Shown: in pieces, positions 41,946-45,570 of the stretch
Numbering within the stretch: the stretch's first letter is position 1
How the letters are laid out: every line of letters begins with the position of its first letter
UHGV virus genome: UHGV-0291501
Length of the DNA stretch: 64,000 bases
Direction: 5' to 3' (one strand)
Origin: a virus
The notes under the pieces: generated by a model
Told to the model about the DNA's origin: nothing
Database searches by the model: none
The model's input: the letters and a program-made list of their open reading frames with translations, nothing else
Position numbers and translations under genes: made by a program

Positions 41946-44336
41946 TTAAGCAGTTCTCACCCAAGCCATTAACTTGTAGAACTGGTTAGTAACACTAAAT
42001 GCTGAACCAGAACCTGTACCACCAGTGTTACCACTAACTGTATGAGTGTGAGCACCGATACCTACAGAGTGGGTGTGAGCACCAGTGTTACTTGTAGTAC
42101 CAGACCATGTGTGTGTATGGTTACCAGTTGTGTTAGTGTTAGGGAATTTGTTATCTTTTCTATCAAGCCAGTCAAGAGTTCTTGTCTTGCTGTTGCTAAC
42201 AGTTGTGTAACCATACTGAGCATCACCACCATTAACCAATAGCAGACCTAAGTGGTGAGCGTGGTTACCAGCAGCACTTGTTGTACCACTTACAGAGTGA
42301 GTATGACCACCAGTGCTATTAGTGTTCTTCGTACCATAATCAAAAGATGAAGTGGTAGCAGAGAAACTATGGGTGTGTGATGGTAAGTTACCAACAGCTA
42401 ACGTCACAGAATCTGAACCGCCAGTTGTAGCAACATCTGAACCGTTTGCTGCTGCAACCCTGATAGTTCTACCAACACCATTGTTAAGGTACGTCCAAGT
42501 TAGACCAGGAAGTGCCGTATTAGGGTCAACATTACTGTTAAACCATGTTACAATACCTACTGGATAGATTTTGTTAAGGTCTGTAGAGTCACTTACTGCC
42601 TGTGCAATCTTCTGGTCAGTTTCAGCTTTAGTGTATGCACCAATATCTGAAGGGGTTGGTTTAAAGGCAGTTGTATAAATCTGTGCTTCCCCAGCATATC
42701 TGCCATCTTTGTCATAGGCATAGGTAAATGTTGCCAGTCCATTTGAGCCATACACAAAAGAGATTCCTCTTGCATGTGCAGCAGTCTTATTAGAGTGAGC
42801 AACATGAATTGCCAATTCTCTCAGTCCACTAGCAACCTGATTGTTTCTGACAAAACCTGAGTACCCAAGATTAAACCCTGAAGGGTTTTCAAGGTTATCT
42901 ACAGATACTGTCATTAAGGATTGGTTTAATAACTGAGTTTTAACAAAATATCTAGCATCTAAGTTAGAAAAGTTCGAAGGTTGAACTTGACCAGTAATGG
43001 CTAAATTCTTATTCGCAACAATTGCTGATGGTTCAAGGGCAATTTGAGTACCAGAGTAACTATTGTTTAAGGTTACCACATTAGAGTTTGGGCCACCTAC
43101 GCCTAACCACCACCTCGATACGTTCGCGGTATCCACACCACGGATATATAGTGGTTGCCCCTGTGTCAAGTTTCTTAATACTAAACCTTCGTTATTTGAT
43201 ACGATAGTCTGCACATTCACGAAAGTGTTTGCCACATTAAGTTTAGGGAGATTACTCAAAGTAGCTGCTGGAATATATCTAGAGTCAATATTAGCCCAAT
43301 CAGAAGGCTGAACTTGACCAGTGATTCTGAAGTCCTTGTTTACTGCGACATGCCCATTGTCAAGTCTAAGATAAGAACCATACACATAGTTGCTGATGAA
43401 TACAGCAGGTGTATTATCACCATTTCCTACATACCACTTGCCAGAACCATCATTAGCTTCGGCTTTAACGTATAGTGCAGCATTTGCTACAGTATTTTTC
43501 AACCTTAAAGCAGCACTGTCACTGATAATAAGTAGGTTCCTGCTAAACGTGTTAGTGCCAGTGAAATTGTTATTGGCAGCTAACTGTGCAAATCTCTGAT
43601 TAGCCACTGTCTGAGTGAAGTATCTAGCATCTAAGTTAGAGAAGTCAGAAGGCTGAACTTGACCAGTGATTGATAAAGACCTATTAAAAGAAGCAGTCGT
43701 GCCTAGAGTGAGGATGGAACCTTGTTTACTCTCGATTTGAACATCAAGACTGCCCCTAATCAGGTTCCCAATAGCCCAAGTTTTTTCATTACTTGCGTCC
43801 CTACCTACAATAGCAGAGTATGCGCTATCCCCACTCACAGGAGATTTTAGTGTTAACTGTTCCCCATTTGCGATGATAGTCTGTTTAGAATTGAATGAGT
43901 TTGTAACAGCAAGCCTTGCATATCTTGCATCATTCTCTTCATTAGTTCTCATCCCAAGTTCATTAGGGCTTGGCTTATTCAGAGTATGATAAACAGTTGC
44001 CGACCTTGAAGTGTCTGCAATAGTCAGTTTAAGGCCATTTGCGTTGATTTTAAAAGTCTTTAAAACATCCCCAATATTAATCTCAGAAGAGCCTGTTGGG
44101 TTAAATACTACCTTACCACCATAAAGTAACTTAACAATCCCTAAGTCACCTGTCATAGTGCTACCAGCAATCTGAACAAATCTCTCAAGTTTAAAAGATG
44201 CTAAGAAATCTTGATAGGTCATTCGACGGTCTTCATCGCCAAGCATTTCAGGTCTCTTTTTAACTCTGACATGAAGAAGGTCATCTGAACGGATTGTATC
44301 GATTGAGTTTAATTCACTCAACTTGTAATCTGCCAT
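41946..44336 (-). CDS. Tail fibre protein with His-rich (HxH repeat) C-terminal tip
   Basis: 796 aa; C-terminal GNHTHT / GAHTHS / GAHTHT repeats like the metal-binding HxH motifs of T4-type fibre tips; C-terminus paralogous to 44383..45570. Confidence 0.7.
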   Translation of the reverse strand: [796 protein letters not shown]

Positions 44337-44349
44337 TATAAATTTTCCT

Positions 44350-44372
44350 CTTAAAAGGGGCTATCAAGCCCC
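44350..44372 (-). terminator. Rho-independent terminator (short U tract)
   Basis: Hairpin ggggct-atca-agcccc followed on minus strand by UUUUAA. Confidence 0.45.
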
Positions 44373-44382
44373 TGTAAAGAAA

Positions 44383-45570
44383 TTAAGCTGTTCTCTGCCA
44401 TACATACAGTACAAAGGATGGCTGCTCAATGTTGAAAGCTTGTCCACCACCAACACTATTAGTGTTCCCGCTATGCGTATGTTCAGAAGAAGAAACTGTT
44501 ACAGTACCATTGTGTGTATGTGAACCAATACCAACTGTGTGGCTGTGAGCACCAATACCAACCGTATGGTTGTGGTTACCAGTTGTGTTAGTGGTAACAC
44601 TGAAAGAGTGGCTGTGAGCACCAGCGACTTCACAGACAGCATCTGCTGAGTACCATGATTGGTCATTTCTTGAAGACCAAACCATTGCAGGTCTTTCAGA
44701 TAAACCACCACCTGATTCATAGGTCAATCTGTGGTTGTGAGCACCAGCAGCACTTGTTGACCCACTGCCAACATGGTTGTGGTTACCAGTCGTGTTAGTG
44801 GTCTTTGTTCCATAGTCAAAAGAGTTGGTAGTCTTAGTTCCATAATCAAAAGCTGAAATTGACACAGTTGCATTATGAGTGTGACCACCACCACTAAGAG
44901 ACACGGAGTGTGAATGTTGAGGCATGTTATTAACTGACAAAGTAACAGTTGAAGCACCAAATACAGAACCTGCTGGTCTTGTGTCAGAGTCATAACCAAC
45001 CAATGCTCTACCTTTTGAAACTAACTCCCAAGTTCCTCCACAAATTAAATACGTAGAAGGGTTTGCAGAGTTCATGGAAAGATGGATAGTACCTACTGGA
45101 TAAGAAGCCTGAACAGCCTTGTACAAGTTATTTACTGCTCTTGCTGTAGCGTACTTGTCTGCATCTTCGTTATAAAGGTTCGATGTTGTCCAGTTCTGGA
45201 CATTGCTCAACCCTACCTGTGCCTTAGTTGTATTGTGTGGGTTGCTCTTGTCTTGAATATGCTGTTGAACAAGATTATTAACCTCTTCTGAAGACATAAT
45301 CTGTAGATTTGCTCTTGCCTGAGCTACATTAGTAACGTCTGATAAGTTATTTGCAGCAACTAACTGAAGAGCATTGATAACGTTATCTAAACCAATTTGT
45401 GTTTTAGTAACACCATGAGGGTTATTTCTTAGGCTTGAGTGTGGAGCAAGTAATTGCTCAAGAGTGCATCTCTTATCCTCAATACCCTGCTTAAGATGGA
45501 AGATATCACTAAGGTCAATTGGTAAGGCTGCTTGAGGCAAGGCACTAATTTGAATTTCACCTACCGCCAT
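44383..45570 (-). CDS. Tail fibre protein (second, shorter) with HxH-repeat C-terminus
   Basis: 395 aa; GNHNH / GAHSHS / GSHTHN repeats; internal tandem duplication FDYGTKTTN x2; C-terminus ends QRTA like the longer fibre (VRTA). Confidence 0.7.
   Translation of the reverse strand: MAVGEIQISALPQAALPIDLSDIFHLKQGIEDKRCTLEQLLAPHSSLRNNPHGVTKTQIGLDNVINALQLVAANNLSDVTNVAQARANLQIMSSEEVNNLVQQHIQDKSNPHNTTKAQVGLSNVQNWTTSNLYNEDADKYATARAVNNLYKAVQASYPVGTIHLSMNSANPSTYLICGGTWELVSKGRALVGYDSDTRPAGSVFGASTVTLSVNNMPQHSHSVSLSGGGHTHNATVSISAFDYGTKTTNSFDYGTKTTNTTGNHNHVGSGSTSAAGAHNHRLTYESGGGLSERPAMVWSSRNDQSWYSADAVCEVAGAHSHSFSVTTNTTGNHNHTVGIGAHSHTVGIGSHTHNGTVTVSSSEHTHSGNTNSVGGGQAFNIEQPSFVLYVWQRTA

What the first reader, a model, noticed from the sequence alone, without database searches (positions are those of the whole stretch)
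41946..45570. Two tail fibre genes sharing a histidine-repeat receptor-binding tip and an internal tandem duplication
Both fibres end in arrays of G(N/A)H(T/S/N)H motifs and near-identical C-terminal tails, resembling the metal-coordinating HxH needle of T4-type fibre tips. The shorter fibre has a perfect tandem peptide repeat (FDYGTKTTN x2). Paralogous tips allow recombination between the two genes and host-range switching.
Basis: partly seen in the sequence, partly recalled or inferred. Interest (0 to 1): 0.45.

Follow-up and report, generated by a model that had tools for sequence, protein, structure and literature searches.

The report
Felix O1-type phage tail fibre tips
These are the short and long tail fibre genes of a Felix O1-like coliphage, both ending in a T4 gp37-type histidine-metal needle that has already been described for this phage genus, so the finding is real but ordinary.

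Summary
The window is a Felixounavirus (Felix O1-like E. coli myophage), 94.8% identical to phage XTG1 across this region. The finding covers two minus-strand genes: a short tail fibre (STF, 44383-45570, 395 aa) and a long tail fibre (LTF, 41946-44336, 796 aa). The His-x-His (HxH) arrays and the FDYGTKTTN x2 repeat are real. The "near-identical C-terminal tails" are overstated (12/28 residues).

Both tips are homologous to the solved T4 gp37 tip (PDB 2XGF; E 1e-26 and 2e-19; 41-42% identity). All 14 histidines of T4's seven HxH motifs align to His in the STF, and 12 of 14 in the LTF.

The chain runs out to a hypervariable head and back. The conserved C-terminus therefore maps to collar residues, and the head is the likely receptor contact.

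The FDYGTKTTN doublet is not a recent duplication. Its DNA copies match at 24/30, T4 has the same doublet, and its copy number (1-4) matches the number of descending IGxHxH units.

The two tips share too little DNA in this genome for easy recombination. Relative UAB_Phi87, however, carries a 113-nt identical head tract in both genes.

This architecture was reported for VpaE1 (2015) and Bas63 (cryo-EM, 2025). Verdict: already known, low interest.

The parts
44383..45570 (-). Short tail fibre (STF) gene, 395 aa; counterpart of Bas63 gp26
   Evidence: ORF. Near-full-length match of the protein (aa 1-394) to PHROG 2097 'tail fiber protein', E 1.6e-136. Pfam Gp10_C 68.4 bits against a cutoff of 27. 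PDB 2XGF E 1.1e-26. 94.8% DNA identity to XTG1, where it is annotated as a tail fiber protein.
41946..44336 (-). Long tail fibre (LTF) gene, 796 aa; counterpart of Bas63 gp27
   Evidence: ORF. Full-length match to PHROG 4277, 1232 bits. Pfam gp37_trimer x3, E 6.5e-60, and Phage_fiber 22 bits against a cutoff of 20. PDB 2XGF E 2.3e-19. Three [8 protein letters not shown]..RY repeats at aa 223, 338 and 447.
44920..45108 (-). STF collar (D10-like) domain, first part, aa 155-217
   Evidence: Aligns to T4 gp37 residues 811-881. Pfam Gp10_C best stretch aa 154-261. AF2 monomer pLDDT 74-87 over aa 141-190.
44731..44919 (-). STF ascending stem, aa 218-280. HxH at 219, 230, 264 and 278. Contains the FDYGTKTTN doublet (44794-44850).
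   Evidence: Aligns to T4 gp37 882-931. His 219/221, 264/266 and 278/280 correspond to T4 883/885, 915/917 and 929/931. H230/H232 lie in a 13-residue insertion.
44647..44730 (-). STF head (tip subdomain), about aa 281-308; hypervariable, likely receptor contact
   Evidence: Aligns to T4 tip residues 932-959. Identity to the window drops to 0.22-0.23 at aa 286-315 across the 30 STFs compared. This head type was found only in Felixounavirus records.
44464..44646 (-). STF descending stem, aa 309-369. HxH at 319, 333, 342, 351 and 364. Contains the VGIGxHxHx doublet (tandem repeat 44511-44574).
   Evidence: Aligns to T4 960-1009. His 319/321, 333/335, 342/344 and 351/353 correspond to T4 966/968, 980/982, 989/991 and 998/1000. 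H364/H366 are extra.
44383..44463 (-). STF C-terminal segment, aa 370-395 plus stop; maps to the part of T4 gp37 that returns to the collar
   Evidence: Aligns to T4 1010-1026, which PMC6957217 assigns to D10. Conserved at 0.88-0.95 across relatives.
42591..44336 (-). LTF N-terminal attachment region and shaft, aa 1-582, with repeated gp37_trimer units
   Evidence: Pfam gp37_trimer, 3 stretches. Repeats at aa 223, 338 and 447. N-terminus conserved and shaft variable among relatives, as reported for Bas63 (PMC12609058).
42381..42590 (-). LTF collar (D10-like) domain, first part, aa 583-652
   Evidence: Aligns to T4 811-881. Pfam Gp10_C 24.2 bits, below the cutoff of 27.
42255..42380 (-). LTF ascending stem, aa 653-694. 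HxH at 654, 678 and 692. One FDYGTKNTN unit.
   Evidence: His 654/656, 678/680 and 692/694 correspond to T4 883/885, 915/917 and 929/931.
42138..42254 (-). LTF head (tip subdomain), about aa 695-733; hypervariable, likely receptor contact
   Evidence: Identity to the window is 0.19-0.28 at aa 691-735 across relatives. An 80-aa query covering LTF aa 678-757 (the head plus its flanking HxH units) is 100% identical in XTG1, LF82P3 and ASO1B. It is 87.5-90% identical in the distal long tail fibre genes of T4-like phages AV122 and SHBML-50-1.
42027..42137 (-). LTF descending stem, aa 734-770. HxH at 740, 754 and 763. One VGIGAHTHT unit.
   Evidence: His 740/742, 754/756 and 763/765 correspond to T4 966/968, 980/982 and 989/991. 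The seventh T4 motif (998/1000) is deleted.
41946..42026 (-). LTF C-terminal segment, aa 771-796 plus stop; maps to the part of T4 gp37 that returns to the collar
   Evidence: Aligns to T4 1010-1026. Conserved at 0.91-0.97 across relatives.
45573..45875 (-). 100-aa ORF immediately upstream of the STF; probable LTF-platform protein (position of Bas63 gp25)
   Evidence: PHROG 4141, E 2.8e-62, function unknown. By gene order it sits between the 285-aa gene (the length reported for Bas63 wedge 1) and the STF, the slot PMC12609058 gives to the LTF platform, gp25. Assigned by synteny only.

Best explanation
The region encodes the two baseplate fibres of a Felixounavirus: a short fibre (STF, 395 aa) and a long fibre (LTF, 796 aa). 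Each most likely forms a homotrimer whose C-terminal ~180 (STF) or ~145 (LTF) residues build a T4 gp37-type tip.

The tip starts with a collar (D10-like) domain. The chain then runs outward as the ascending half of a needle, forms a small head at the far end, runs back as the descending half, and ends inside the collar.

Each HxH motif from the three chains would supply six histidines that coordinate one metal ion on the trimer axis (iron in T4). That predicts 9 sites in the STF and 6 in the LTF, which rivet the needle together.

The hypervariable head between the two His arrays would contact the receptor. For this genus the known receptor is lipopolysaccharide. The two heads in this phage are unrelated in sequence, so the phage probably carries two specificities.

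The FDYGTKTTN doublet on the ascending strand and the VGIGxHxHx doublet on the descending strand appear to be paired units that set needle length. Specificity evolves by swapping the head cassette, with crossovers in the conserved His-motif flanks. Such swaps are seen between phages, with T4-like phages, and occasionally between the STF and LTF of one genome.

Shown here: homology, His-motif correspondence, the location of variability, the matching unit counts, and the exchange tracts in relatives. Inferred: trimer state, metal binding, head-receptor contact, and the pairing of the two unit types in space.
For: Identity of the genes:
- 94.8% DNA identity to Felixounavirus XTG1 over the two genes, and 95.7-96.1% to KhF1/KhF2 over 25 kb.
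- Full-length or near-full-length PHROG tail-fibre matches.
- Gene order and lengths 489/285/100/395/796 aa. The 489- and 285-aa lengths equal those reported for Bas63 wedge 2 and wedge 1, and the gene order matches Bas63 gp23-gp27.

Homology to a solved structure:
- phmmer against PDB gives 2XGF (T4 gp37 tip) as the best hit for both, E 1.1e-26 and 2.3e-19.
- A three-way alignment is 41-42% identical to gp37 785-1026.

His mapping:
- T4's HxH motifs at 883, 915, 929, 966, 980, 989 and 998 align to His in the STF at 14/14 positions and in the LTF at 12/14.
- PMC6957217 states that H929/H931 are iron-binding and that seven iron atoms lie along the needle. It gives the domain limits used here.

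Out-and-back topology and head:
- Conservation among the 30 STFs and 29 LTFs compared is lowest at STF aa 286-315 and LTF aa 691-735. It is high in the last ~30 residues.

Paired units:
- Counts of FDYGxK-type and IGxHxH-type units are equal in 30/30 STFs (2:2, 3:3 or 4:4), in 26/29 LTFs by pattern match, and in T4 gp37 (2:2).
- Among 120 database homologues r = 0.82 by pattern match. The 9 mismatching sequences inspected by eye mostly resolve to equal counts.

Cassette exchange:
- UAB_Phi87 STF nt 835-947 equals LTF nt 2077-2189 exactly, 113 nt.
- The window's LTF head region is 87.5-90% identical to those of T4-like phages.
- A T4-like head occurs on VpaE1-type LTFs (L006, L008) and on an STF (P0016).

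Prior literature describes the same architecture: PMC4690856 and PMC12609058.
Against: - No structure of these particular proteins exists. The AlphaFold2 monomer model was of low confidence (mean pLDDT 63.6, pTM 0.25). It gave no PDB match at E <= 0.001, and 2XGF was not among the 50 matches listed. The 3D claim therefore rests on sequence homology and on the low-resolution Bas63 fibre density reported in PMC12609058.
- Metal identity and occupancy are untested. The two extra STF motifs (H230/232 and H364/366) have no T4 counterpart.
- No homologue of the T4 chaperone gp38 is present in the 64-kb window (tblastn best E 0.2). Folding may therefore differ from T4.
- One database STF (P0051, 331 aa) has 4 ascending but only about 2 descending units, an exception to the pairing rule.
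- The spatial pairing of the two unit types was inferred from their equal distance from the hairpin centre in T4 numbering. It was not read from coordinates.
Confidence: 0.88

Rival explanations
1. The FDYGTKTTN x2 repeat is a recent slippage-type tandem duplication, a contingency locus whose copy number varies among isolates and modulates host range.
For: Tandem Repeats Finder detects a 30-nt period with 2.0 copies at 86% matches. The peptide copies are identical. Copy number does differ across the genus, from 1 to 4.
Against: - The DNA copies match at only 24/30, with 4 synonymous differences in the 9 identical codons.
- 23 of the 30 STFs compared have exactly two copies, including those down to about 67% identity to the window STF.
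- T4 gp37 carries the same doublet at the aligned position, [20 protein letters not shown].
- Changes in copy number always come with an equal change in descending IGxHxH units. Simple slippage at one site would not produce that.
Confidence: 0.05
2. The two fibres are functionally redundant paralogues kept alike by frequent gene conversion, both binding the same receptor in this phage.
For: In UAB_Phi87, L013 and L015 the STF and LTF heads are near-identical. UAB_Phi87 has a 113-nt exact tract.
Against: In this window the heads are unrelated: STF RLTYESGGGLSERPAMVWSSRNDQSWYSADAVCEV against LTF [41 protein letters not shown]. The best STF-LTF DNA match is 81 nt at 75%, and the longest exact word is 21 nt. 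The two head types also have different distributions in GenBank phages: the LTF head also occurs in T4-like phages, the STF head does not.
Confidence: 0.1
3. The histidine arrays themselves are the receptor-binding surface (for example metal-mediated adhesion to LPS phosphates) rather than an internal structural spine.
For: His-rich surfaces can bind metals and phosphates.
Against: - The His positions are the most conserved residues of the tip across relatives and T4, while the segment between the arrays is the most variable. That is the opposite of what a specificity determinant would show.
[quoted passage not shown] Function was mapped by mutagenesis to residues 929-949: the iron-binding H929 and H931, and residues lining the tip surface at 933-949 (PMC6957217).
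Confidence: 0.04
4. The HxH enrichment is a compositional or low-complexity accident in Gly/Ser/Thr/His-rich sequence, without homology to metal-binding needles.
For: The region is compositionally biased (G, S, T, H, N).
Against: Shuffling keeps composition yet gives at most 4 (LTF) or 6 (STF) HxH against 6 and 9 observed. Position-specific homology to 2XGF reaches E 1e-26 and 2e-19, with every aligned His conserved.
Confidence: 0.01

Closest known systems
Bas63 (Escherichia phage JohannRWettstein) STF gp26 and LTF gp27, Felixounavirus cryo-EM study (Sci Adv 2025, PMC12609058)
   Same: Same genus and same gene order (wedge 2, wedge 1, LTF platform, STF, LTF). The paper describes both fibres as having a T4 gp37-like tip with a collar, an HxH needle that doubles back at a small head, and high sequence variability in the tip. 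The LTF has six HxH motifs plus an extra His next to the head-proximal motif: HxHH at 692-695 here, HHxH at 692-695 in Bas63.
   Different: The STF here has nine HxH motifs and two FDYGTK units. The paper counts seven HxH for the Bas63 STF. Relatives with seven HxH and three FDYGTK units exist (L020, L022, L024, L026). The head sequences are allelic variants.
T4 gp37 receptor-binding tip, domains D10-D11 (PDB 2XGF; Bartual et al. 2010; Islam et al. 2019, PMC6957217)
   Same: 41-42% identity over residues 785-1026. All seven (STF) or six (LTF) HxH motifs fall at aligned positions. Both have the FDYGTK and VGIGAHTHT units and the out-and-back layout with a variable tip subdomain.
   Different: - T4 gp37 is the distal half-fibre of a four-protein long fibre. 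Here each tip sits on a single-gene fibre attached directly to the baseplate.
- The STF needle has two extra HxH motifs at its collar end. The LTF needle lacks one HxH and one FDYGTK unit.
- No gp38 homologue was found in the window.
- The receptor for the genus is LPS (PMC8594841), whereas T4 uses OmpC or LPS.
VpaE1 gp74/gp75 (Viruses 2015, PMC4690856)
   Same: Orthologous gene pair. That paper already reported homology of both C-termini to the T4 gp37 adhesin region, with a conserved N-terminus and a variable C-terminus.
   Different: The VpaE1-type LTF (L006) carries a T4-like head. The window LTF carries a different, longer head, which it shares with XTG1, LF82P3 and ASO1B and with the T4-like phages AV122 and SHBML-50-1.
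T4 gp10/gp11/gp12 collar-type domain (Pfam PF21939 Gp10_C; PDB 2FKK)
   Same: STF aa 144-220 match the gp10 C-terminal domain (Pfam 68.4 bits; PDB E 2.3e-5). PMC6957217 states that gp37 D10 shares this fold.
   Different: In gp10 the domain has no HxH needle inserted into it. The LTF match is below the Pfam cutoff (24.2 against 27 bits).

Membership tests
T4 gp37-type receptor-binding tip (D10 collar + D11 needle/head, PDB 2XGF) | Significant sequence homology to gp37 residues ~785-1026 | tested here: met
   phmmer against PDB: STF E 1.1e-26 (aa 146-367 to chain residues 18-228); LTF E 2.3e-19 (aa 649-775). 41-42% identity in a three-way alignment.
T4 gp37-type receptor-binding tip (D10 collar + D11 needle/head, PDB 2XGF) | HxH motifs at the positions of T4's seven HxH (iron-coordinating) motifs | tested here: met
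   T4 His 883/885, 915/917, 929/931, 966/968, 980/982, 989/991 and 998/1000 align to His in the STF at 14/14 positions and in the LTF at 12/14, the seventh motif being deleted. Iron coordination by H929/H931 and seven irons along the needle are stated in PMC6957217.
T4 gp37-type receptor-binding tip (D10 collar + D11 needle/head, PDB 2XGF) | Out-and-back chain: ascending and descending stems flank a small variable head, and the C-terminus returns to the collar | tested here: met
   Tested at sequence level only. HxH arrays lie on both sides of the least conserved segment (STF 286-315, LTF 691-735), and the conserved last ~26 residues align to T4 1010-1026.
T4 gp37-type receptor-binding tip (D10 collar + D11 needle/head, PDB 2XGF) | Three-dimensional fold matches 2XGF | tested here: inconclusive
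   AlphaFold2 monomer of the STF with a 42-sequence alignment: mean pLDDT 63.6, pTM 0.25. Foldseek against PDB gave no hit at E <= 0.001, and 2XGF was not among the 50 matches listed. A monomer model is unsuitable for an intertwined trimer.
T4 gp37-type receptor-binding tip (D10 collar + D11 needle/head, PDB 2XGF) | Homotrimer with metal ions on the three-fold axis | not testable with these tools
   Needs a multimer prediction with ions, or an experiment.
T4 gp37-type receptor-binding tip (D10 collar + D11 needle/head, PDB 2XGF) | Accompanied by a gp38-type chaperone gene (a T4 trait, not strictly defining) | tested here: not met
   tblastn of T4 gp38 against the 64-kb window: best E 0.2. The ORFs downstream of the LTF are a 65-aa ORF matching PHROG 402 (function unknown) and a 123-aa protein whose counterpart in phage fjerdesal is annotated as a holin. 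gp57A was not tested.
Felixounavirus STF/LTF pair (Bas63 gp26/gp27; VpaE1 gp74/gp75) | Orthology to the annotated fibre genes of the genus | tested here: met
   94.8% DNA identity to XTG1 over 94% of the region, where the genes are annotated as tail fibre proteins. PHROG 2097 and 4277 full-length or near-full-length matches. 29 IMG/VR loci with 60-99% identical STFs, followed downstream by a >500-aa ORF in all but one.
Felixounavirus STF/LTF pair (Bas63 gp26/gp27; VpaE1 gp74/gp75) | Synteny: baseplate wedge genes, small platform gene, STF, LTF | tested here: met
   The 489-aa gene has a Baseplate_J domain. The 285-aa gene matches PHROG 4017 'baseplate protein'. They are followed by the 100-aa ORF, the STF and the LTF, all on the minus strand. 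The order and the 489- and 285-aa lengths match Bas63.
Pfam PF03335 Phage_fiber repeat / PF20744 gp37_trimer | Score above the curated cutoff | tested here: met
   LTF: gp37_trimer 199.6 bits (cutoff 21.7) and Phage_fiber 22 bits (cutoff 20). PF03335 was not reported for the STF at E <= 0.1.

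The most novel reading that the evidence does not exclude
The needle of gp37-type tips may be built from paired length units. One 10-residue FDYGxK unit on the outgoing strand would always be matched by one 9-residue IGxHxH unit on the returning strand, giving 1:1, 2:2, 3:3 or 4:4. Needle length would then change only by coordinated gain or loss of a pair. Head cassettes would also move between the short and long fibre of a single genome by gene conversion anchored in the His-motif DNA. The 113-nt identical tract in UAB_Phi87 is an example. I did not find either point stated in the papers read here. Together they would give a simple design rule for engineering fibre length and specificity.
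Probability: 0.3. Interest if true: 0.35.

Novelty: already known. Interest (0 to 1): 0.15.

Why it matters
The fibres decide which bacteria a Felix O1-like phage can attack, and this genus is used in Salmonella and E. coli diagnostics and biocontrol. Knowing that the variable head, not the His arrays or the C-terminal tail, is the likely specificity cassette tells an engineer where to cut when swapping host range. So does knowing that the flanking His-motif DNA is where natural crossovers occur. For this window, however, the genes, their T4-like tips and both head alleles are already present in published phages and papers. The finding adds annotation, not discovery.

Tried and rejected
- Structure prediction of the STF as a monomer (42-sequence alignment) gave a low-confidence model (pLDDT 63.6, pTM 0.25). 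Foldseek against PDB returned nothing at E <= 0.001, only long-hairpin look-alikes (phi29 collar, lysenin pore) and weak gp10 hits. This says nothing about the needle. The LTF was not tried for the same reason.
- The original 2XGF paper (PMC2996694) is not held. Domain limits and iron-binding residues were taken from Islam et al. 2019 instead.
- One literature query failed on term length.
- A gp38-type chaperone was looked for by tblastn and none was found. gp57A was not tested.
- The intrinsic-terminator scan did not list the GGGGC-TTGATA-GCCCC-TTTT hairpin that is visible in the 46-nt STF-LTF gap. Its T-run is too short for the rule, so I do not claim it as a terminator.
- Promoter-like sites in the region are no more frequent than in shuffles (12 against 12.2), so none is claimed.
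- tRNA scan of the whole window: none.
- Rejected ideas: a recent slippage duplication, a compositional artefact, and His arrays as the binding surface (see rivals).
- I tried to identify Bas63 among the IMG/VR loci through its HHxH motif. L020 has HHNH at 689, not 692, so it is a relative and not Bas63.

Full report
**What is there**

The window is part of a Felix O1-like coliphage of the genus Felixounavirus. The 3.6-kb region is 94.8% identical to Enterobacteria phage XTG1 and matches 248 phage records, mostly Escherichia and Salmonella Felixounavirus. A 25-kb stretch around it is 95.7-96.1% identical to phages KhF1 and KhF2.

The finding's coordinates cover exactly two minus-strand ORFs. 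One is a 395-aa protein (44383-45570). The other is a 796-aa protein (41946-44336), 46 nt downstream. Both give full-length or near-full-length matches to PHROG tail-fibre families.

Upstream on the same strand lie a 489-aa Baseplate_J protein, a 285-aa baseplate protein and a 100-aa ORF. The gene order, and the 489- and 285-aa lengths, match those reported for wedge 2, wedge 1, LTF platform, short tail fibre (STF, gp26) and long tail fibre (LTF, gp27) in the cryo-EM study of the Felixounavirus Bas63 (PMC12609058). I therefore call the 395-aa gene the STF and the 796-aa gene the LTF.

**Checking the observation**

- *His-x-His (HxH) motifs.* The LTF has 6, at aa 654, 678, 692, 740, 754 and 763. 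The STF has 9, at aa 219, 230, 264, 278, 319, 333, 342, 351 and 364.
- *Chance.* Shuffling each protein 5000 times gave means of 0.43 and 1.39 motifs, and never reached the observed counts.
- *Peptide repeat.* FDYGTKTTN occurs twice in the STF, at aa 241-249 and 251-259. Tandem Repeats Finder reports it as a 30-nt period.
- *C-terminal tails.* The 'near-identical tails' are overstated. In the BLASTP alignment 12 of the last 28 residues match, and the tips overall are 33% identical with 25% gaps.

**What it is**

Both tips are homologues of the crystallised T4 gp37 tip, PDB 2XGF. It is the best PDB hit for each protein, at E 1.1e-26 for the STF and 2.3e-19 for the LTF.

I fetched T4 gene 37 and aligned gp37 785-1026 with both tips. 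Identity is 41-42%. T4 has seven HxH motifs in this region, at 883, 915, 929, 966, 980, 989 and 998.

Islam et al. 2019 (PMC6957217) state that seven iron atoms lie along the needle and that H929 and H931 are iron-binding. They also give these domain limits:

| T4 gp37 domain | Residues |
|---|---|
| D10 collar | 811-881 and 1010-1026 |
| D11 stem | 882-931 and 960-1009 |
| D11 tip | 932-959 |

In my alignment all 14 T4 motif histidines are His in the STF. In the LTF 12 of 14 are His, and the seventh motif is deleted. That criterion is not met.

The STF has two further motifs without a T4 counterpart. H230/H232 lie in an insertion just after the first ascending motif. H364/H366 lie just before the chain re-enters the collar. 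Both are at the collar end of the needle, one on each strand.

**Where specificity lies**

I collected 29 related loci from IMG/VR, with STFs 60-99% identical to the window's, and extracted their STF and LTF proteins.

Per-position identity to the window is high at the N-termini and across the His arrays. It drops to 0.22-0.23 at STF aa 286-315 and to 0.19-0.28 at LTF aa 691-735. It recovers to 0.88-0.97 in the last ~30 residues.

This is the pattern expected from the T4 layout. The chain goes out, forms the head and returns. The variable receptor-contacting part is therefore in the middle of the tip sequence, and the conserved C-terminal tail maps to collar residues.

The two heads in this phage are unrelated in sequence. 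Their distributions also differ:

- An 80-aa query covering the LTF head and its flanking HxH units is 100% identical in XTG1, LF82P3 and ASO1B. It is 87.5-90% identical in the distal long-fibre genes of T4-like phages AV122 and SHBML-50-1.
- The STF head was found only in Felixounavirus records.

The genus is known to depend on LPS rather than protein receptors (PMC8594841; bioRxiv 10.64898/2026.04.02.716166). The receptor of these particular heads is not known.

**The 'tandem duplication'**

- The two DNA copies match at only 24 of 30 positions, with four synonymous differences in the nine identical codons.
- T4 gp37 has the same doublet at the aligned place, [20 protein letters not shown].
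- 23 of the 30 STFs compared (this window plus 29 relatives) have two copies.

So it is an old structural feature, not a recent or isolate-variable duplication.

Reading the tips side by side shows a regularity. The number of FDYGxK-type 10-mers on the ascending strand equals the number of IGxHxH-type 9-mers on the descending strand.

| Protein group | Ascending : descending units |
|---|---|
| LTFs | 1:1 |
| Window STF and T4 gp37 | 2:2 |
| L020, L022, L024, L026 | 3:3 |
| L025, L028, L030 | 4:4 |

By pattern match this holds in 30/30 STFs and 26/29 LTFs. Two of the three LTF misses look like pattern failures (a diverged unit missed, a spurious match); the third is a 541-aa ORF with no HxH motifs.

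Among 120 database homologues the counts correlate at r = 0.82. The nine mismatching sequences I inspected by eye mostly resolve to equal counts. One chimeric 331-aa protein, P0051, is a true exception.

The descending partner of the FDYGTKTTN doublet in this window is the second tandem repeat at 44511-44574, encoding VGIGAHSHT-VGIGSHTHN. In T4 numbering the two unit types lie at equal distances from the hairpin centre. My inference is that they sit at the same level of the needle and act as paired length units. I could not check this against coordinates.

**Recombination between the two genes**

In this genome the best STF-LTF DNA match is 81 nt at 75%, and the longest shared exact word is 21 nt. 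Homologous exchange is therefore not favoured here, and nothing suggests a recent one.

It has happened in the genus, however. In L019, which is Salmonella phage UAB_Phi87, STF nt 748-947 and LTF nt 1990-2189 are 91% identical. They include a 113-nt exact tract that covers the head and ends sharply inside the descending GDHSHTV motif. L013 and L015 show older versions of the same event, about 80% identity over about 200 nt.

A T4-like head occurs on VpaE1-type LTFs (L006, L008) and on an STF from the protein database (P0016). Heads therefore move as cassettes, with crossovers in the conserved His-motif flanks. They move between phages, between phage families, and between the two fibres.

**Comparison with what is known**

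The 2015 VpaE1 paper already reported that both fibre C-termini are homologous to the T4 gp37 adhesin region (PMC4690856).

The 2025 Bas63 cryo-EM paper describes both fibres as ending in a gp37-like collar, an HxH needle that doubles back, and a head. It counts the di-histidine motifs (seven in the STF, six plus an extra His in the LTF) and reports high variability in the tip (PMC12609058).

The window's LTF matches that description, with six motifs and an extra His at 695. Its STF is an allelic form with nine motifs. Seven-motif STFs also occur among the relatives.

The finding is therefore already known for this genus. Both head alleles already exist in GenBank phages.

**What failed**

An AlphaFold2 monomer model of the STF was of low confidence (pLDDT 63.6), and Foldseek gave no significant PDB match. 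This is uninformative for an intertwined trimer. No homologue of the T4 chaperone gp38 is present in the window.

**Verdict**

These are real, correctly located and correctly recognised T4-type HxH tips. The details on the C-terminal tail, the age of the duplication and recombination in this genome need correction.

- Novelty: already known.
- Interest: 0.15.
- The paired-unit regularity and the intragenomic head conversion in UAB_Phi87 are small additions that may not have been stated before.

Noticed in passing
L019:4835-4947 and L019:7294-7406 (Salmonella phage UAB_Phi87, JN225449): A 113-nt exactly identical tract covers the head domain in both the STF (gene nt 835-947) and the LTF (gene nt 2077-2189) of one genome. 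The flanking sequence is diverged. It looks like a recent gene-conversion tract between the two fibre genes.
   Followed up: partly
window 42066-42305 (LTF aa 678-757: head plus flanking HxH units): This segment is 87.5-90% identical at protein level to the distal long tail fibre genes of ~167-kb T4-like phages (Escherichia phage AV122, Shigella phage SHBML-50-1). Weaker partial matches occur in BYEP01, sutha and N2. This points to head-cassette exchange between phage families.
   Followed up: partly
window 44511-44574: A second tandem repeat in the STF gene (27-nt period, 2.5 copies, 82% matches) encodes VGIGAHSHT-VGIGSHTHN. It is the descending-strand counterpart of the FDYGTKTTN doublet.
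   Followed up: yes
window 42942-43670 (LTF aa 223-465): Three copies of an ITGQVQPS(D/N)(F/W)(S/A)N(L/I)D(A/S)RY motif about 110 aa apart (aa 223, 338, 447). They match the three Pfam gp37_trimer stretches. BLASTP of the protein against itself found no repeat at E <= 1e-3, so the units are highly diverged apart from this motif.
   Followed up: partly
window 41301-41866: Two small overlapping minus-strand ORFs lie just downstream of the LTF. The first is a 65-aa hydrophobic protein (PHROG 402, function unknown), which is not annotated in XTG1 or fjerdesal. The second is a 123-aa protein whose counterpart in phage fjerdesal is annotated as a holin. They occupy the position that gp38 and the holin t hold after gene 37 in T4.
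   Followed up: partly
window 41271-41294: A terminator-like hairpin readable on both strands (AAGGCTCC...GGAGCCTT with T-runs on both sides) lies between the convergent fibre/holin genes and the thymidylate synthase gene. XTG1 annotates a Rho-independent terminator at the same place.
   Followed up: no
window 44337-44382: The 46-nt STF-LTF gap contains a GGGGC-TTGATA-GCCCC hairpin followed by TTTT and a Shine-Dalgarno-like AAGAGGAAAA. The rule-based scan did not call it a terminator because the T-run is short.
   Followed up: no
L001:6740-6749 (XTG1, KT184316) and the KhF1-3 records: These GenBank records annotate a 10-bp 'cos site' inside the long tail fibre coding sequence. This looks like a motif-match annotation and not a real packaging site.
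   Followed up: no
GU169904.1 (Staphylococcus phage SA1, 147 kb), positions 83003-86593: A record labelled as a Staphylococcus phage carries Felixounavirus tail fibre genes, 88.7% identical to UAB_Phi87. Two 'Campylobacter' phage records also match. Mixed or mislabelled records are likely.
   Followed up: no
P0051 (Shigella phage vB_SflM_004 tail fibre, 331 aa): A chimeric STF with four ascending FDYGxK units but only about two descending IGxHxH units and a broken junction (VTIGDVTSGASGDHSH). It is the one clear exception to the equal-count rule, and may be a recombinant or defective allele.
   Followed up: no
window 1-64000: No tRNA genes were found in the whole 64-kb window. GC skew changes sign at about 30 kb, with gene orientation switching around 30-41 kb.
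   Followed up: no
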